DNA of 41,868 nt from a virus. Taxonomy: Duplodnaviria; Heunggongvirae; Uroviricota; Caudoviricetes. The notes under the pieces are model-generated. The model made no database searches. It saw nothing but the letters and a program-made list of their open reading frames with translations, and was not told the origin of the DNA. Positions 19,950 through 32,996 of the stretch are shown here, piece after piece. The first letter of the stretch is position 1. Each line of letters opens with the position of its first letter. The translations under genes and the position numbers were made by a program. Location: positions 1 through 41,868 of IMG/VR virus record IMGVR_UViG_2974481312_000001; one strand, 5' to 3'.

Positions 19950-21080
19950 ATGGTAACTCGTAAAATAACAGATGAACAGTTGCAGCAAGAGCTAAACGCT
20001 GGTCTCGGGCCGACCGAAATCGCAAAGAAGTACAACATGTCACGCCGTAATGTTCAGCTAAGGTCAGCTCGTCTGGCCAAGAAAGGTGTTGGTCACGGTC
20101 GCGACGTAAGCCATCTGGTGCCGGATGGGTATAAAATAAAGGGTACGTCGTCACTGGTGGATGAGTTCGGCAATACGAAACTTCAGTGGGTTAAGACTGA
20201 CGCCGACGCCGAGCGTCAGGTCGAGTTGATGCGAGCCGTAATAGATGGGATGAAGTCCGATATTACGCCAGTTTCTTCGGTCCCTCGGCCTAAAAAGCGA
20301 CTAAACGAAAAGTTGCTAAATCTTTACACGATTTCTGACTTCCATTTAGGTATGTTGGCCTGGGCGGATGAGAGTGGCGACGACTGGGATATGAAGATTG
20401 CAGAAGACCTGTTCTCGAGATGGTTCGACGCGGCGTTTCAGAAGGCGCCTGATGCCGGTGTGGGTGTTATTAACCTATTAGGGGACTTTGCGCATTTTGA
20501 CAGCCTTGATGCCGTTACGCCTGCCAGTGGCCATGTACTGGACGCGGACACGCGTTACCAGAAACTGGTGCGCTACATGATTCGTATGGTCAGGCGCGTG
20601 GTTAATATGGCGCTTGTTAAGCATAAAAATGTTCATCTCCTAATTGTGCAAGGAAACCATGACGAGTCAGGCATGATTTGGTTGGCTGAAATGTTTAACA
20701 CTCTTTACGATAATGAACCTCGTGTTTTTGTAGATACATCAGCTGATGTCTACAAGATGGTCCAACACGGTAAGACGACCCTTTTCTTTCACCATGGGCA
20801 TAAGGCGAGATTCGATGCTATCGAACCAGTTATGATCGCCAAGTTCCGTAAGGCGTTCGGAGAGAGCGTTTACAGTTACGCCCATGTGGGCCACCTTCAC
20901 CATCAGAAGATTGTGGAAAGCCGTAACATGATTGTTGAACAACACCGCACTCTCGCGGCGAAAGATGCTTACGCATCACGTGGTGGATGGATGTCAGGCC
21001 GCAGCGCGAATGTTATTACTTACAGTGCCGAATACGGCGAAGTCGCGCGTTTAACTATTTCACCGGAGATGCTGGGATGA
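19950..21080 (+). CDS. Calcineurin-like metallophosphoesterase with N-terminal HTH domain
   Basis: Motifs ISDFHLG, LGDFAHFD, QGNHDE, FFHHGH, VGHLHH; N-terminal HTH-like segment LGPTEIAKKYNMSRRNVQLRSARL. Confidence 0.8.
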   Translation: MVTRKITDEQLQQELNAGLGPTEIAKKYNMSRRNVQLRSARLAKKGVGHGRDVSHLVPDGYKIKGTSSLVDEFGNTKLQWVKTDADAERQVELMRAVIDGMKSDITPVSSVPRPKKRLNEKLLNLYTISDFHLGMLAWADESGDDWDMKIAEDLFSRWFDAAFQKAPDAGVGVINLLGDFAHFDSLDAVTPASGHVLDADTRYQKLVRYMIRMVRRVVNMALVKHKNVHLLIVQGNHDESGMIWLAEMFNTLYDNEPRVFVDTSADVYKMVQHGKTTLFFHHGHKARFDAIEPVMIAKFRKAFGESVYSYAHVGHLHHQKIVESRNMIVEQHRTLAAKDAYASRGGWMSGRSANVITYSAEYGEVARLTISPEMLG

Positions 21081-21420: not shown

Positions 21421-22092
21421 ATGAACGAATTAATGAATGTTAGTGAAGCACAAACAATGTCCAGCCGTGAGATTGCGGAACTGACGGGGAAAGAACACGA
21501 CAACGTACGACGCGATATATTAAAAATGGCACAGGAACTTTCCCTCAATTTTGAGGAAAAGGTTTTGCCTTCAAACGGTGGCAGACCAAGTAAGGTATTT
21601 CTCTTAGACAAAGAAAATACATTAATCCTGGTTTCAGGGTACAGCATCAAAATGCGCGCTGCCATCATCCGCCGTTGGCAGGAACTGGAGTCACAAGCGA
21701 GCAAACCATCCTTACCGGTGCCCAAGACAATGGGGGAGGCTTTAAGGTTGGCTGCGGACTTGTGGGAGGAGAAAGAACGCCTTGCGCTTGAGAACAAGGA
21801 AATGGCGCCAAAAGCTGATGTCTACGACCGCATCATCGACAGAAATAACTTGTACAACGCGACGCAGGTTGCCCAGAAGTTCGGCCAATCTGCCGTGTGG
21901 ATGAATAAACAACTTGAACAATTTGGCGTATACAATCGCTCCGTAAAACGCGGTCGTGTCTTCCAGCAATGGTTCATCGATAAGGGTTACGGCATTATGC
22001 GTGAAACAGAAACCGGGCATTCACAGGCCATGTTCTTTGCAGAAGGTGAGATGTGGATTATTGGTAAGTTAACAGAAGAAGGTTTGATTTAA
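21421..22092 (+). CDS. Phage antirepressor (Rha-like N-terminal domain plus KilA-C/ANT C-terminal domain)
   Basis: N-terminal MSSREIAELTGKEHDNVRRDI; C-terminal DVYDRIIDRNNLYNATQVAQKFG..VYNR; AAGAGGAG RBS. Confidence 0.75.
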   Translation: MNELMNVSEAQTMSSREIAELTGKEHDNVRRDILKMAQELSLNFEEKVLPSNGGRPSKVFLLDKENTLILVSGYSIKMRAAIIRRWQELESQASKPSLPVPKTMGEALRLAADLWEEKERLALENKEMAPKADVYDRIIDRNNLYNATQVAQKFGQSAVWMNKQLEQFGVYNRSVKRGRVFQQWFIDKGYGIMRETETGHSQAMFFAEGEMWIIGKLTEEGLI

Positions 22093-28351: not shown

Positions 28352-28615
28352 CTATTCCAGAATATTCCTTATATATTCCTGCAACCGGAATACTTTCAGA
28401 CGCAATTGCCGCGTGCACTCGGCGTTCTGTACGTCGACGGCCAGGTCTTCATCGGCATCACTACTTGGCAATGCCATTTTGCACGGCGGCTGCATTAGTG
28501 TCATATCCGGGGATGGAATTAGCATTCTCGGCGGCGCGTCGTTTGATTGACACCCGCTCAGGAGGGAACACGCAAACAACACGACCAGGACGGGTAACGT
28601 ATTTGATAACTTCAC
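28352..28615 (-). CDS. o-spanin (Rz1-like lipoprotein) overlapping the i-spanin gene
   Basis: Lipobox LLSGC after a hydrophobic signal peptide, Pro-rich mature region; +1 frame overlap with 28461..28847. Confidence 0.55.
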   Translation of the reverse strand: MKLSNTLPVLVVLFACSLLSGCQSNDAPPRMLIPSPDMTLMQPPCKMALPSSDADEDLAVDVQNAECTRQLRLKVFRLQEYIRNILE

Positions 28616-28847
28616 GGGTGATAGCCTCCGCGTTTTCTTTACCTTCGGTTTCGGCGGCGGCGGCCCTGGTATCGTTCTGCCGTTGCCGTTGTGTTTTCTT
28701 CGCTAGCTCGGCCTGTGCTTTCTGCTGTTGCTGTGAAACAAGATTGGCGCGGCCTTCTACCCACCCGCTTCTGTAGTTGTACTGGCCGTATAACCACAAG
28801 GAGAGGATACCGGCTGCCGTGACTACCGCGGTTACTTTCCAATTCAT
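28461..28847 (-). CDS. i-spanin (Rz-like)
   Basis: N-terminal transmembrane segment VTAVVTAAGILSLWLY followed by Gln/Ala-rich coiled-coil. Confidence 0.55.
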   Translation of the reverse strand: MNWKVTAVVTAAGILSLWLYGQYNYRSGWVEGRANLVSQQQQKAQAELAKKTQRQRQNDTRAAAAETEGKENAEAITREVIKYVTRPGRVVCVFPPERVSIKRRAAENANSIPGYDTNAAAVQNGIAK

Positions 28848-29130
28848 AGTATCCCCTTTCTTTATACGCTAAGCCCGGCTTACGCCGGGCGTTAAACTCG
28901 TATATCTGTAAACCTTATACGGCGAATCTTAGCTAAATACTGAAAGCAGTATAGCTCGGCCCTTCCGAATGCGTTCGCGGTTACGCTAGGGCGTTGTGAC
29001 GCCCGCTTCACGCGACCCGCACCGCGGTACGCTGAAAGCGTAGTTAGCGTAGCATTTAAAATAATAGAAATCTACTTTCTGAATAAAGTATTCCTTAATT
29101 TACATTAGCAAGGAATAATTGGAATAATTG

Positions 29131-29162
29131 AGGGCAAAATTAAGGCCCCTTGAAGGGGCCTT
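29131..29162 (-). terminator. Putative terminator inside the late operon
   Basis: Hairpin AAGGCCCC-TTGAA-GGGGCCTT after the Ig-like gene; weak U tract. Confidence 0.4.
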
Positions 29163-29165
29163 TCG

Positions 29166-29626: not shown

Positions 29627-30670
29627 CTATTCCTCTTTCAGATAATCGGCAACACGCTTATCGAGTTCCGCCATCTCTTTAAGAGTTAACGGACGCCCGA
29701 ATCCATCTACCGATATTACACGAAATTCTTCCGGGGTTATCCCACTATTACGAAAAATCTTACCCCTGACAGGGCCGAGTGCTTCGTCCTGGAACCACGC
29801 CGGTTGCTGTTTAAGGAACTCGTAGTAGGACGTGTCCGCGCTTACCTGCTTACCCCCATCCGCACCCCTGGCCGCTCGTTTTGCGCCCTTATCCAGGAAG
29901 TCGAATTCTGAGCTAATTACCGGTGCTGTGCTTGACCGACAGTTAGGGTGCGCTGGGGGTAGCGGACCTTTGCCTATTTCGTACTGCATAGAATCTCGCG
30001 ACCGACAAACCGCCGAGGTTCTGGAATCGAGGGTAGATACCCACTCATATTTCGTAATGATGTCGTCGTTCTGAGCGTAAACCTGTTGCCTGGCTTCGTT
30101 GGATACGTGCGCTAGGGCGGTACGGATAACGGTAGCGGCGTTACGCTCGGAGATATCGGCCAGTCCACCGGGCCCAACAACGTTCTTAACTATCTGCCGC
30201 GTGGTCATACCCTGTACGAACCCAGACTTAACCCCCATCACCAGGCGATTCACCTCGGTTTGCCGCCAGCCATTCATTAGCGAAACAAAATCAACCGGTT
30301 TTTCGCTTAGTTCAAGTGGCGCGAAAGTCGCAGCGGCCCACACCTGCTCCGCAGCCGGTGTTACAAAGTTAGCATTAACGTTGGTCGACAATGTTTTTAC
30401 ATTCCAGTTAACCTCATAGTCGGAAAGCTCACGGGCGTCGGCCAGTAGCTTCTCATACCACCCGGACGTAATTCCGTTCAGTGCTTGCTCAAGTTCCCGC
30501 AGCATGATGGTGAGTCTCGCTGCCGTTCTGCTGTCATCGCCAAACAGCAGCACCTGTCGCTTAACCTCATCACGCATTTGCGAGATAAATGGTGCCAGGT
30601 CTTTTACTTCGCTACTGGCGTTACGTTGCAGCAATATCTGGTGGCTGATAATCGATTCTAAAAGACTCAT
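29627..30670 (-). CDS. Head morphogenesis protein (Mu F-like / SPP1 gp7-like)
   Basis: Signature ..PPAHPNCRSS..; located after the portal gene. Confidence 0.7.
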   Translation of the reverse strand: MSLLESIISHQILLQRNASSEVKDLAPFISQMRDEVKRQVLLFGDDSRTAARLTIMLRELEQALNGITSGWYEKLLADARELSDYEVNWNVKTLSTNVNANFVTPAAEQVWAAATFAPLELSEKPVDFVSLMNGWRQTEVNRLVMGVKSGFVQGMTTRQIVKNVVGPGGLADISERNAATVIRTALAHVSNEARQQVYAQNDDIITKYEWVSTLDSRTSAVCRSRDSMQYEIGKGPLPPAHPNCRSSTAPVISSEFDFLDKGAKRAARGADGGKQVSADTSYYEFLKQQPAWFQDEALGPVRGKIFRNSGITPEEFRVISVDGFGRPLTLKEMAELDKRVADYLKEE

Positions 30671-30785
30671 ATACCCCTCCCGCCTTTGGTGTGGTGATTA
30701 TACACTCAACTCATCAGGGTGCATAATCAAGGCCATTTAGTCTGCGAGAAATAATCTTATTCGCTTTCATTTTGGTAGTTAAAGG

Positions 30786-30815
30786 TTGCATAACCACAAA
30801 AATTAGGAATATAAT
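30786..30815 (+). promoter_or_regulatory. Sigma70-like promoter TTGCAT-18-TATAAT
   Basis: Upstream of the KilA-N-like gene; AAGAGGAG RBS before ATG 30847. Confidence 0.5.
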
Positions 30816-30846
30816 TTAAACGATACAATTAAGAGGAGAAAAACAG

Positions 30847-31497
30847 ATGAATGTGCAGACTTTAGAATTTCCGTATGGCGAGGTGGAATTTACACGTGAT
30901 GAGTATATAGATGCCTCAACATTAACCATCCAGATGAACAGATGGAGGTTCGATAACGGACTCCAACCAAGAAATCTTGCGCAGATACTAAAAACCGATG
31001 ACTGCAAAAACTTTATGCGTGTGTGTGAGGAGGAGACAGGTATTGTTCCGTTAAAAACATCAAGAGGGAGGAACGGGAAGACGTGGTTGTGCCTGCACCT
31101 GGCCGTGTACATTGCAGAACAGTATAGTGCGTATTTTCACTTCCTGGTTATAGACCGATTTATTACGCAACGGCAGGTAGAGCTGCGTAACATTGGTGCG
31201 GTAAGCTTCGTGGAGCTTAATGCCGCCGTTAGTAGGATGATTGAACGTACAGAAGGGCGGATAGGCCATAGTGGACATTTCATACAGGTAGCGAAAGCAA
31301 TCAAGGAGTCTATAGATATTCGTGAAGTCACAGGTTTTGATACATGGGACTCCCAGGACGCAAAAACTAATCAATTGCGGAGCGAGATTCAAAAGTCTAT
31401 GGTGACGTTGTTGGATATGGAAGCAGTCAACTCGTGGGATGAGCTTAAAGAGACAATACCGCGTGTTGTTCGCAAATGCGCGGCAAATATATGTTAA
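30847..31497 (+). CDS. KilA-N domain-like protein
   Basis: Segment GKTWLCLHLAVYIAEQYSAYFHFLVIDRF resembles the KilA-N/APSES core; plus-strand gene inside the minus-strand head operon. Confidence 0.5.
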   Translation: MNVQTLEFPYGEVEFTRDEYIDASTLTIQMNRWRFDNGLQPRNLAQILKTDDCKNFMRVCEEETGIVPLKTSRGRNGKTWLCLHLAVYIAEQYSAYFHFLVIDRFITQRQVELRNIGAVSFVELNAAVSRMIERTEGRIGHSGHFIQVAKAIKESIDIREVTGFDTWDSQDAKTNQLRSEIQKSMVTLLDMEAVNSWDELKETIPRVVRKCAANIC

Positions 31498-31503
31498 AAC
31501 TAC

Positions 31504-31527
31504 GGCCCCGTTATGGGGCCTTTTGTT
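31504..31527 (+). terminator. Rho-independent terminator
   Basis: Hairpin GGCCCC-GTTAT-GGGGCC followed by TTTTGTT. Confidence 0.7.
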
Positions 31528-31529
31528 CA

Positions 31530-32996
31530 CTACTCCTGTTGTTGCGCCGCCTGCGGTATTTCCCCCTGAACCTCAGTGGCGACCGGTAATGGCTGGTCAG
31601 CCACAGCGTCCTTAATATCAGCGTCTGTCCAGTCGGTGACACCGGCCTTACGCAACGCGGCATAGTAGGCCGTGGCGGGCAGCAGCCCGGCGTTAATGTC
31701 CGCCACCCATGCAGCCCGGTCTTGCGCGGTCATAGGTTGCAGGAAGAAATCCATGTTAAGGCGGAACTCGACTTCCGTATCTTCAGGTTTACCGAGCATT
31801 ATCGCCACCCAACGTAAAGCATCTGTATACGCCTGGCTTACGTTACGTGCGATTGTTGCCATGACGGACGTATCCGCGCCGCGTTGGATGCGTGCCGATT
31901 CTGCGGTAATTTGCTGAGTCGGGGTGATAAGCTGCGCACCAATCTGGATAGCCTGCTGCTCTTTATCCAACATATTCTGGCGGGCCAGGTTATTCTCGCC
32001 AGCCTGAATAAGCTGGGCGCTTCCGCCGTACCCCAGGTTATGCCCGCACCGACTACCAAATTTGATACCGTTGGGGTTCGCCTCCTTGAATGATTGAGGT
32101 GTTAAGTTCTCGCCTGGGTAGATAAACAGGGTCGGCTGCCCAACAACGAAGCTGGATTCTTCGTTGTCCGCGCTGTTCCTGTAGTGCCCGATGTTAAGTT
32201 CCGCGAGTGGTAGTAGCGGAGCGTCGTCAATGGTGGCGTCGTTATTGGTCGCCCCAATAAAGGTAAACGGAATTACCCCTCGTAATGATTCCCCTAAGTC
32301 CGGGTAAATCTCCACGACGTCTTCCTGCGCACCACCTTCGGCATCGAAACGAAAAAGACGTTGACGGTAGTTGCCGTCGGTATCGATGTCCAGGACCCGG
32401 TACTGTTCCCCATATTTTGTTTCGAACTCGTTTCCCGGTTCGTTGTACTCCCATGTCTCGCGCAGCACAACCATAGTTACCCGGTTTACAGAACCTACGC
32501 GCGTGAGTCGCCAGTTAACGATATTCTCGGTAGTGTAGAAAGCGATTGTAGGGTTAAGCAAACCTGCGTTTTGTTCGGCGGCCGTAGCTGCGCCGGTTTC
32601 CGGGGCGTCAACAAGAAGACCACCGCGACCTACTGAGTCAATCTCCATTAGCGTGTCCTGCGCATGCTGTATTAGGCCTACACCGGACCCATCTGCATTT
32701 TTAAGAAGATACTCCAGCTCCTTCGGGATATTGATTTCCGGTTCTTTGCGCATGACGCTACCAACCATCCCTGACAGCGTGCGCCGGGTGAAGTTATAGA
32801 CGATACCGCCCGCTTCATATTCTGCCTGACGCGCTTCACCGTAAGCTTTGTCCGGTTCATTCAGCCCTACGTTGCGTAGATAGCTAACCAATTCACCTGC
32901 AAGCGCGTGGCGCACCTTCTGCCATTTAGGCGCGTAATGCAGCCATTCACGGTGCTTGGTTTTTACGCCAGAACCCTGGCCGTTTGCTGTTAACAT
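31530..32996 (-). CDS. Portal protein (putative)
   Basis: 488 aa ORF between terminase large subunit and head morphogenesis gene. Confidence 0.6.
   Translation of the reverse strand: MLTANGQGSGVKTKHREWLHYAPKWQKVRHALAGELVSYLRNVGLNEPDKAYGEARQAEYEAGGIVYNFTRRTLSGMVGSVMRKEPEINIPKELEYLLKNADGSGVGLIQHAQDTLMEIDSVGRGGLLVDAPETGAATAAEQNAGLLNPTIAFYTTENIVNWRLTRVGSVNRVTMVVLRETWEYNEPGNEFETKYGEQYRVLDIDTDGNYRQRLFRFDAEGGAQEDVVEIYPDLGESLRGVIPFTFIGATNNDATIDDAPLLPLAELNIGHYRNSADNEESSFVVGQPTLFIYPGENLTPQSFKEANPNGIKFGSRCGHNLGYGGSAQLIQAGENNLARQNMLDKEQQAIQIGAQLITPTQQITAESARIQRGADTSVMATIARNVSQAYTDALRWVAIMLGKPEDTEVEFRLNMDFFLQPMTAQDRAAWVADINAGLLPATAYYAALRKAGVTDWTDADIKDAVADQPLPVATEVQGEIPQAAQQQE

What the first reader, a model, noticed from the sequence alone, without database searches (positions are those of the whole stretch)
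30786..31530. KilA-N-like gene inserted on the opposite strand between portal and head morphogenesis genes
A 216-aa plus-strand gene with its own near-consensus promoter (TTGCAT-18-TATAAT), strong RBS and terminator interrupts the leftward head operon. Its N-terminal region resembles the KilA-N/APSES DNA-binding fold. This is a second independent moron-like insertion in the structural region; KilA-N proteins are often associated with host killing or regulatory functions.
Basis: partly seen in the sequence, partly recalled or inferred. Interest (0 to 1): 0.5.

Follow-up and report, generated by a model that had tools for sequence, protein, structure and literature searches.

The report
KilA-N DNA-binding gene mislabelled amidase
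A real, self-contained gene sitting backwards between two head genes of a Salmonella Jersey-type phage encodes a KilA-N-type DNA-binding protein, not the "amidase" that most databases call it. It is an accessory gene of a known kind whose actual job has never been tested.

The parts
30786..30791 (+). -35-like hexamer TTGCAT (3/6 to TTGACA)
   Evidence: Sequence. Not listed by the consensus scan. A -35-like element occupies the same aligned position in all alleles.
30810..30815 (+). -10 hexamer TATAAT, 18 nt after the -35-like element
   Evidence: Sequence. Conserved block in class A alleles. PVP-SE2 annotators placed a promoter here.
30800..30817 (.). Short palindrome AAATTA-N6-TAATTT overlapping the -10. 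Possible weak operator; it is the counterpart of the 26-bp palindromes of allele classes B1, B2 and C.
   Evidence: (unique in the window, 0.05 expected by chance at up to 3 mismatches). The arms are only 6 bp, so the evidence is weak for this allele.
30831..30838 (+). Shine-Dalgarno AAGAGGAG, 8 nt before the ATG
   Evidence: Sequence. AGGAG is conserved in most alleles; the S100 orf6 / L020 class A copies read TGAGG at that position.
30847..31497 (+). CDS, 216 aa, two-domain protein
30847..31125 (+). N-terminal KilA-N/APSES-like winged-helix domain (residues 1-93: b1-b2-b3-a1-a2-a3-b4-b5-a4)
31129..31494 (+). C-terminal helical domain (residues 95-216): a long helix plus a four-helix bundle with a short connecting helix. 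DdrC-like; probable dimerisation or effector module.
31504..31526 (.). Bidirectional intrinsic terminator: hairpin GGCCCCGTTATGGGGCC (31504-31520) plus a T-run. It ends the + gene and also faces leftward transcription leaving the portal gene.
   Evidence: The hairpin is kept, with changed sequence, in other alleles. Empty slots also carry a hairpin after the portal gene.
30697..30704 (-). Possible extended -10 (TGTATAAT on the minus strand) that could restart leftward transcription into the Mu-F gene. Tentative.
   Evidence: Read from the sequence. Not flagged by the scan and not conserved in S100. PVP-SE2 annotators placed a leftward promoter at window ~30744-30792 instead.
29627..30670 (-). 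Flank: Mu-F-like head morphogenesis gene
   Evidence: PF04233, 4.8e-10.
31530..32996 (-). Flank: portal gene (DUF4055)
   Evidence: PF13264, 1.9e-25; record annotations.

Best explanation
The cassette 30786-31526 is an independent accessory transcription unit, a 'moron' made of promoter, gene and bidirectional terminator. It sits in a recombination-prone slot between the portal and Mu-F genes of a virulent Jerseyvirus.

Its product is a non-structural, non-lytic, sequence-specific DNA-binding protein with two parts:
- an N-terminal KilA-N/APSES winged-helix domain that reads DNA;
- a conserved C-terminal four-helix-bundle domain (DdrC-like) that most likely makes the protein a dimer and/or contacts a conserved partner.

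It is probably transcribed by host sigma-70 RNA polymerase independently of the late operon. It probably represses its own promoter by binding a palindrome that overlaps the -10. Its main target is most likely host or competitor DNA rather than other sites in its own genome.

Shown:
- the gene, its conservation, the fold of both domains, and the variability of the slot;
- allele-specific palindromes in related alleles.

Inferred:
- promoter activity and timing, dimerisation, and binding to the palindrome;
- the downstream biological role.
For: Gene and signals.

Strong purifying selection:
- aa identity is 93.5% at 82% nt identity between two class A copies.
- dN/dS is 0.02-0.05.

KilA-N assignment:
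- Pfam on this protein alone, E 1.3e-3.
- The Vibrio phage full-length homologue scores 32.9 bits, above the gathering cut-off.
- 37 of 49 relatives match.
- NCBI and UniRef already name close relatives 'KilA-N domain-containing protein'.

Accessory status and mobility:
- The slot is empty, replaced or duplicated in relatives.
- The gene sits at a different location in Macdonaldcampvirus, again on the opposite strand and with a bidirectional terminator.
- GC dips across the cassette.
- Distant family members sit in early/replication modules beside Cro-like, primase, Sak, SSB, Erf and Lar genes.

Operator inference, over 29 gene copies:
- N-domain class B1 always has AAATGGTATAT-N4-ATATACCATTT.
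- Class B2 always has AAATTCTACATT-N2-AATGTAGAATTT.
- Class C always has GAATACTA-N10-TAGTATTC.
- Each operator spans 26 bp and its right arm is the -10 hexamer.
- The arms are invariant between Jerseyvirus and Macdonaldcampvirus copies whose coding DNA is only 76-80% identical and whose flanks do not align.
- The B1 palindrome is unique in the Jersey genome.
- B1/B2 differences cluster in the loop and helix at residues 41-52 and in the wing at 67-72.
Against: - Nothing here measures expression, DNA binding, oligomeric state or phenotype.
- The window's own allele (class A) has only a 6+6 bp palindrome in an AT-rich promoter, which could be chance.
- Promoter and N-domain are adjacent, so their association could partly reflect linkage rather than co-adaptation.
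- Half (4 of 8) of the class B1 genes examined carry a B2-type palindrome at the proximal promoter, with their own type further upstream. This complicates a simple one-protein/one-operator model.
- The palindromes' right arms are -10 hexamers, so the left arms could instead be -10 elements of a divergent promoter.
- The -35 is poor in the window.
- The DdrC match is to a helical bundle, a common fold, and there is no sequence-level signal.
Confidence: 0.55

Rival explanations
1. It is a peptidoglycan amidase or endolysin, as labelled in PHROG 6095 and in many GenBank records.
For: - PHROG 6095 'amidase, lysis' matches at 2e-128.
- Many records call it amidase or endolysin.
Against: - No amidase, CHAP, NlpC or lysozyme family appears in Pfam even at E <= 10, nor in NCBIfam.
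- The fold is a winged helix plus a helical bundle.
- The phage has its own lysozyme (36373..36861, PF00959, 2.8e-30) and spanin genes elsewhere.
- The Vi II-E1 record that carries the label itself notes the hit to P1 KilA as a DNA-binding domain.
- The PHROG name is inherited from member annotations.
Confidence: 0.02
2. It is a host-killing or host-takeover factor in the sense of P1 KilA. Expression is toxic because the protein binds host DNA or a host protein through the conserved C-domain, shutting down a host process early in infection.
For: - KilA-N domain.
- Own sigma-70-type promoter independent of the late operon.
- The C-domain is under the strongest constraint, as expected for a conserved host partner.
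- There is no second copy of the operator in the phage genome, so the main target may lie outside the phage.
Against: - No toxicity data exist.
- The KilA-N domain by itself does not imply killing.
- The gene is dispensable in TU03, SETP13 and Kagunavirus.
- This reading is compatible with, not exclusive of, the best explanation.
Confidence: 0.15
3. It is a phage-versus-phage exclusion factor that works like BstA. The KilA-N protein blocks replication of co-infecting rivals, and the allele-specific palindrome on the phage's own DNA is the cognate self-recognition or immunity element, like aba.
For: - BstA has a KilA-N-like N-domain and a cognate, variant-specific DNA element spanning the 5' end of its own gene (PMC8585504).
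- Here there are discrete specificity classes with cognate palindromes.
- Some phages carry two classes in tandem.
- Others carry tandem operators of two classes.
- The cassette is shared by two unrelated Salmonella siphovirus lineages that compete for the same host.
Against: - There is no detectable homology to BstA (hhalign probability 0.13%).
- No PADLOC hit.
- The carrier is a virulent phage, not a prophage.
- The palindrome position over the -10 is explained more simply by autorepression.
Confidence: 0.13
4. It is a nucleoid-associated, DNA-compacting or DNA-end/nick-binding protein like DdrC, acting on phage or host DNA without sequence-specific regulation.
For: - DdrC has the same order of parts: beta-hairpin, winged helix, linker helix, then a four-helix bundle with a short connecting helix (PMC9303277).
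- The DdrC N-domain resembles the Dachshund domain (PMC11347143), which is also among this model's hits.
Against: - No sequence similarity.
- Four-helix bundles are common.
- The class-specific palindromes argue for sequence-specific binding.
Confidence: 0.1
5. It is a head-assembly or virion protein that belongs functionally with its structural neighbours.
For: - It lies inside the head module.
- It is nearly universal within Jerseyvirus.
Against: - Opposite strand, own promoter and terminator.
- Absent from the same junction in Kagunavirus and TU03, and replaced in SETP13.
- In Macdonaldcampvirus it sits in the tail module instead.
- Distant relatives sit in early regions.
- The fold is that of a DNA-binding protein.
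Confidence: 0.03

Closest known systems
KilA-N / APSES DNA-binding domain proteins (Pfam PF04383: phage P1 KilA, poxvirus and baculovirus KilA-N proteins; fungal Mbp1/Swi4 APSES domains)
   Same: - Relatives pass the Pfam model.
- It is viral and fused to a variable C-terminal module, as is typical of the family.
   Different: - The window protein alone is below Pfam's cut-off.
- The C-terminal domain is not the ANT/KilA-C domain or any other Pfam family.
- The two-domain family is small: 115 representative clusters among 1.8 billion proteins.
Phage morons (promoter-gene-terminator units inserted between late genes, as described for lambdoid and HK97-like phages; own knowledge)
   Same: - Own promoter-like element, own terminator and lower GC.
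- Lies between two adjacent structural genes that are contiguous in relatives.
- The slot holds different cargo in different phages.
   Different: - The carrier is a virulent phage, so there is no lysogen to benefit.
- The gene is ancient and nearly fixed in the genus, with saturated synonymous divergence. It is not a sporadic recent gain.
BstA-aba abortive-infection system of Salmonella prophage BTP1 (PMC8585504)
   Same: - A KilA-N-like N-domain followed by a second domain.
- A variant-specific DNA element at the 5' end of the protein's own gene.
- The same host genus.
   Different: - No sequence homology.
- The element here is a perfect palindrome over the -10, not a 63-bp element bounded by direct repeats.
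- The carrier is a virulent phage.
- No defence phenotype is known.
DdrC of Deinococcus radiodurans (PDB 7qvb; PMC9303277, PMC11347143)
   Same: - Same order of secondary-structure elements in both domains.
- Both N-domains resemble Dachshund-type winged helices.
   Different: - No sequence signal.
- DdrC is a chromosomal damage-response protein that senses nicks and compacts DNA.
- N-domain superposition and dimer geometry could not be tested here.
Repressor-operator immunity classes of temperate phages (heteroimmune cI/Cro-operator sets; own knowledge)
   Same: - Discrete DNA-binding-domain classes, each paired with its own palindromic operator overlapping a promoter.
- Modular exchange by recombination.
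   Different: - The fold is KilA-N, not a lambda-type helix-turn-helix.
- There is a single operator at the gene's own promoter only.
- No lysogeny module is present.

Membership tests
KilA-N domain (PF04383) | The protein's own sequence reaches Pfam's gathering score | tested here: inconclusive
   18.9 bits against a 23.8 cut-off, E 1.3e-3, aligned over 88 of 107 model positions. Allele B (P0027) scores 22.1 bits.
KilA-N domain (PF04383) | Full-length homologues of the same two-domain family reach the gathering score over the equivalent region | tested here: met
   Vibrio phage 1.054.O gp70 (32% identical over 93% of the length) scores 32.9 bits. 37 of 49 relatives match at E <= 0.01, the best at 7.1e-18. 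Precomputed PF04383 on P0136 and P0150-P0153.
KilA-N domain (PF04383) | APSES-type fold (beta-hairpin, then helix-turn-helix with a beta wing) | tested here: met
   [not shown]
Phage moron | Own promoter and terminator, independent of the flanking operon | tested here: met
   The promoter is predicted only: TTGCAT-18-TATAAT, position conserved in all alleles. The terminator is listed by the scan and folds stably. Activity was not measured.
Phage moron | Absent from the same junction in otherwise syntenic relatives | tested here: met
   Kagunavirus fFiEco02 has a 69-bp gap, TU03 a 36-bp gap, and SETP13 an unrelated gene.
Phage moron | Base composition differs from the neighbours | tested here: met
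   GC 0.37-0.47 across the cassette against 0.49-0.59 in the flanks.
Peptidoglycan amidase / endolysin (database label) | A recognisable catalytic domain (Amidase_2/3, CHAP, NlpC/P60, lysozyme) or hydrolase fold | tested here: not met
   None in Pfam at E <= 10 or NCBIfam. No hydrolase among the structural matches.
Peptidoglycan amidase / endolysin (database label) | Placement with holin, endolysin and spanin genes | tested here: not met
   The lysozyme gene is at 36373..36861, and the spanin genes are elsewhere. This gene lies between portal and Mu-F on the other strand.
BstA abortive-infection family | Sequence homology to BstA over both domains | tested here: not met
   hhalign of the family profile against BstA of BTP1: probability 0.13%.
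BstA abortive-infection family | A cognate DNA element in the protein's own locus that neutralises it | not testable with these tools
   Class-specific palindromes exist at the gene's own promoter, but their effect on the protein is unknown.
Known anti-phage defence proteins (PADLOC-DB) | Match to any defence-system model | tested here: not met
   0 families at E <= 1.
DdrC-like proteins | C-terminal four-helix bundle superposable on the DdrC C-terminal domain | tested here: met
   [not shown]
DdrC-like proteins | Detectable sequence homology | tested here: not met
   Family profiles against PDB sequences at E <= 10 do not list DdrC. Profile-profile comparison was not possible because the DdrC sequence could not be obtained.
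DdrC-like proteins | Domain-swapped homodimer | not testable with these tools
   Only single-chain prediction was available.

The most novel reading that the evidence does not exclude
The gene is the virulent-phage counterpart of a BstA-like system. A KilA-N/DdrC-like DNA-binding protein is used in competition between phages, or for host takeover. It comes in at least four specificity classes, each recognising a cognate 26-bp (or 18-bp) palindrome on its own genome as a self mark.

Phages that carry two genes or two operators in tandem would then be products of an arms race.

As a corollary, Deinococcus DdrC, so far regarded as having no relatives outside its genus, would be a domesticated member of this phage protein architecture.
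Probability: 0.12. Interest if true: 0.75.

Novelty: new member of a known kind. Interest (0 to 1): 0.38.

Why it matters
- **Annotation.** More than a hundred Jersey-like phage genomes, many proposed as biocontrol or feed-additive agents, list this gene as 'amidase' under 'lysis'. The label comes through PHROG 6095 and Pharokka-style pipelines, and at least one published gene table repeats it (PMC12965234). The evidence says it is a DNA-binding protein. Lysis-gene inventories and any endolysin mining based on the label are therefore wrong.

- **Biology.** The gene is one of very few strongly conserved accessory genes shared by two unrelated Salmonella siphovirus lineages. Its specificity classes, with matching palindromes, offer a simple and directly testable system for how KilA-N domains read DNA. 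That question remains poorly characterised for bacterial viruses.

- **Structure.** The resemblance of the C-terminal domain, and of the overall architecture, to DdrC gives a lead on the origin of a Deinococcus repair protein described as having no relatives.

Tried and rejected
- **Amidase/endolysin.** Rejected: no catalytic family or hydrolase fold.
- **Known defence protein.** PADLOC returned nothing.
- **BstA membership.** hhalign probability 0.13%.
- **Paralogy with the other opposite-strand DNA-binding gene of this phage** (21421..22092, Rha + ANT). hhalign probability 0.8%, so they are not related.
- **Direct sequence link to solved structures.** Only non-significant hits, with Mbp1 at E 0.5.
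- **Sequence link to DdrC.** None found. The DdrC sequence could not be obtained because no supplementary text is held, so no profile-profile test was run.
- **The palindrome as a phage-wide operator.** Rejected: it is unique in the window and in the Jersey genome.
- **Positive selection on the N-domain.** Cannot be assessed because synonymous sites are saturated.
- **Literature on transcription or function of this gene in Jersey-like phages.** Nothing found.
- **Searches that could not be run.** The afdb50 fold library was unavailable. A second IMG/VR scan only returned the same contigs.
Full report
**Identity of the window.** The 3.4-kb stretch around the finding is 100% identical to Salmonella phages f2SE, f3SE and fSE4S, and 95-97% identical to SETP3, PVP-SE2 and others. 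These are virulent siphoviruses of the genus Jerseyvirus (Guernseyvirinae).

**The observation.**
- ORF 30847..31497 (+, 216 aa) is present.
- It lies between a Mu-F-like head morphogenesis gene (29627..30670, -, PF04233) and the portal gene (31530..32996, -, DUF4055).
- Upstream are TTGCAT (30786-30791), an 18-nt spacer, TATAAT (30810-30815), and AAGAGGAG 8 nt before the ATG.
- Six bases after the stop codon is the hairpin GGCCCCGTTATGGGGCC (31504-31520), followed by TTTTGTT.
- The consensus scan reports the hairpin as terminator-like on both strands. It does not report the promoter, because the -35 matches at only 3 of 6 positions.
- The hairpin folds at -13.8 kcal/mol (+ strand) and -15.1 kcal/mol (- strand), better than nearly all shuffles.
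- GC drops to 0.37-0.47 over the cassette against 0.49-0.59 on either side.

**It is a real, constrained gene.**
- tblastn finds it in 340 phage records, 334 of them nearly full length.
- Two copies of the same allele class are 93.5% identical in protein but only 82% in DNA.
- dN/dS is 0.02-0.05 with synonymous sites saturated.

**What the protein is: N-terminal domain.**
- Pfam gives KilA-N at E 1.3e-3, 18.9 bits, below the 23.8-bit cut-off.
- An exhaustive search of 1.8 billion representatives finds a small family: 115 clusters, mostly ~200-220 aa, 25-35% identical over both halves.
- Of 49 aligned members, 37 match KilA-N, the best at 7e-18.
- The full-length Vibrio phage 1.054.O homologue scores 32.9 bits and was annotated KilA by its depositors.
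- NCBI and UniRef already name close relatives 'KilA-N domain-containing protein'.
- An AlphaFold2 model built on 54 sequences is confident (pLDDT 92.6). Residues 1-93 form b1-b2-b3-a1-a2-a3-b4-b5-a4.
- Foldseek against viral models returns KilA-N proteins of phages and poxviruses.

**What the protein is: C-terminal domain.**
- Residues 95-216 form a long helix plus a four-helix bundle with a short connecting helix.
- DdrC is a winged-helix plus linker-helix plus four-helix-bundle protein that forms a domain-swapped dimer through that bundle (PMC9303277).
- The DdrC N-domain resembles the Dachshund domain, and it is described as lacking relatives outside Deinococcus (PMC11347143).
- No sequence-level link was detectable, so this is a fold-level resemblance only.

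**What it is not.**
- PHROG 6095, which the protein matches at 2e-128, is named 'amidase, lysis'.
- Many GenBank records and at least one published gene table repeat this label.
- No amidase or other hydrolase family or fold is found.
- The phage has a separate lysozyme (PF00959) and spanin genes.
- The Vi II-E1 record that bears the label notes a hit to P1 KilA as a DNA-binding domain.
- The protein matches no PADLOC model and is not related to BstA. It is also unrelated to the Rha/ANT protein encoded at 21421..22092.

**Is it an insertion? The portal/Mu-F junction across relatives.**

| Phage | State of the junction |
|---|---|
| Kagunavirus fFiEco02 | Genes 69 bp apart, no gene between |
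| Jerseyvirus TU03 | Genes 36 bp apart, no gene between |
| SETP13 | Unrelated 122-aa + strand gene with its own promoter-like element and the same terminator |
| S100 | Two paralogues, 72% identical, in tandem |

- Both empty slots keep a hairpin after the portal gene.
- About 30 records have two matching places.
- Only 3 of the 42 Escherichia-phage records that share the flanking DNA carry the protein.
- The same gene (~77% aa identity) also occurs in the unrelated Macdonaldcampvirus lineage (Vi II-E1, ASO78B and others). There it lies between the tape-measure and minor-tail genes, again on the opposite strand and followed by a bidirectional terminator.
- Coding DNA between the two lineages is only 76-80% identical, so the sharing is old.
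- Distant family members lie co-directionally in early/replication modules.

Together these results support a mobile, self-contained accessory unit, a moron in architecture, that has been resident and selected for a long time.

**Allele classes.**
- Between classes, the KilA-N domain is 51-62% identical while the C-domain is 83-97% identical.
- Four N-domain classes were seen: A (this window), B1, B2 and C.
- B1 and B2 differ mainly at residues 41-52 (loop and second helix) and 67-72 (wing).

**Class-specific palindromes.**
- Every copy keeps a -35/-10 pair at a fixed distance from the ATG.
- Classes B1, B2 and C carry perfect palindromes that span 26 bp. The right arm is the -10 hexamer in each case.

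| Class | Palindrome |
|---|---|
| B1 | AAATGGTATAT-N4-ATATACCATTT |
| B2 | AAATTCTACATT-N2-AATGTAGAATTT |
| C | GAATACTA-N10-TAGTATTC |

- The half-site is (A/G)AAT-NN-TA, with NN = GG, TC or AC.
- In a first set of 21 copies and an independent set of 8, B1 always has its palindrome (8/8), B2 its own (7/7) and C its own (5/5).
- Four B1 phages (AG11, ST521_2H4, ER7, AKM_CE) carry two promoter modules in tandem: B1-type distal and B2-type proximal.
- The arms are invariant between Jerseyvirus and Macdonaldcampvirus copies although the flanks are unalignable.
- The B1 palindrome occurs once in the whole Jersey genome.
- Symmetric compensatory change, conservation and uniqueness indicate a site for a dimeric protein whose specificity varies with the allele. 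The adjacent KilA-N domain is the obvious candidate, which implies autorepression.
- The caveats are linkage between promoter and N-domain, the tandem-module cases, and the alternative that the left arms are divergent -10 elements.

**Limits for this window.** The window's class A has only AAATTA-N6-TAATTT (30800-30817). That motif is unique in the window, but its 6-bp arms sit in AT-rich DNA, so the operator inference is weakest for the very allele under review.

**Mechanism proposed.** The steps below are inferred unless a call is cited.
1. Host RNA polymerase transcribes the gene from its own promoter, independently of the leftward late operon.
2. The protein dimerises through the DdrC-like bundle and binds DNA through the KilA-N domains, including its own promoter.
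3. Late leftward transcription that passes the portal-side hairpin would run antisense to the gene and could shut it off.
4. The terminator between portal and Mu-F predates the insertion. Mu-F expression must then rely on read-through or on a weak leftward promoter. Candidates are TGTATAAT at 30704-30697 (read from the sequence) or the site that PVP-SE2 annotators marked.

The biological role is untested. Candidates are host takeover, exclusion of rival phages in a BstA-like manner (PMC8585504), or DdrC-like DNA handling.

**Verdict.** The finding is correct and its interpretation is supported. The gene is a new member of a known kind (KilA-N DNA-binding accessory proteins) and is already recognised as such in some databases, although it is widely mislabelled. 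Three things raise it above routine: the class-specific operators, the presence of the cassette in two unrelated phage lineages, and the DdrC-like C-domain.

Noticed in passing
[not shown]
   Followed up: partly
L023:2380-2475 (phage AG11); also L052, L053, L057: Four Jerseyviruses with a class B1 gene carry two ~60-bp promoter modules in tandem. The distal one has the B1-type palindrome and TTGACA-17-TACCAT. The proximal one has the B2-type palindrome and a poor -35.
   Followed up: partly
L005:2235-3923 (phage S100): Two paralogues (class A and class C) sit in tandem in the portal/Mu-F slot. They are separated by a small minus-strand ORF and by a stretch identical to the start region of a Mu-F gene in empty-slot phages. 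This suggests the duplication arose by recombination between phages with different alleles.
   Followed up: partly
L002:2674-3042 (phage SETP13): The same slot holds an unrelated 122-aa + strand gene with no Pfam family. It has its own promoter-like TTGCTT-17-TACTAT and the same GGCCCCGTTATGGGGCC terminator.
   Followed up: partly
window 21421-22092 (+): This is another opposite-strand gene inside the tail module. It encodes a Rha (PF09669) plus ANT/KilA-C (PF03374) protein. The Jersey record calls its counterpart similar to a Vi II-E1 DNA-binding protein. It is not related to the KilA-N protein (hhalign probability 0.8%).
   Followed up: partly
window 19950-21080 (+): A 376-aa + strand ORF next to the Rha/ANT gene has weak calcineurin-like phosphoesterase matches (E 4e-4, at about the Pfam cut-off).
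   Followed up: no
window 28352-28847 (-): Overlapping spanin-like genes lie inside the head module, about 8 kb from the lysozyme gene (36373..36861). One of them has a lipobox, LLSGC. The lysis functions are therefore split between two places.
   Followed up: no
L003:1528-3420 (TU03); L050:228-2087 (MET_P1_001_43); also BPS11T2, LP31, CTH7: Some Jerseyviruses have a Mu-F head morphogenesis gene of ~1860-1890 bp instead of 1044 bp. One record labels it NAD+--asparagine ADP-ribosyltransferase. This is possibly a Mu-F protein with an added toxin-like domain. All three class C phages in the test set have the long form.
   Followed up: no
L026/L033 (SS3e), L050:2264-2915 (MET_P1_001_43), phage horsemountain (BFVD entries of 157 and 158 aa): In a few records the gene is split by a frameshift. 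These are either sequencing errors or natural knock-outs; natural knock-outs would show the gene is dispensable.
   Followed up: partly
window 28848-29165, compared with L002:498-923, L003:499-1038, L004:1089-1610, L005:1-552: There is a second variable slot between the head-decoration gene and the spanin genes. Relatives carry different + strand genes there: a methyltransferase, a 'sliding clamp'-labelled protein, and unknowns. The window has only about 320 bp.
   Followed up: no
L015:4150-4176 (Vi II-E1) compared with L003:3428-3446 and L004:3873-3891: The terminator hairpin of the Macdonaldcampvirus cassette (AAAGCCCCTTTCGGGGCTTTT) is almost the same as the hairpin that follows the portal gene in empty-slot Guernseyvirinae (AAAGCCCCTTTCGGGGCTAT). 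This may be coincidence or a recombination joint.
   Followed up: no
L032:1845-3224 (phage Jersey): A Hef-like homing endonuclease gene lies on the opposite strand between the terminase and portal genes of Jersey. Its record notes similarity to a Vi II-E1 protein. It is another element shared by the two lineages and is absent from the window.
   Followed up: no
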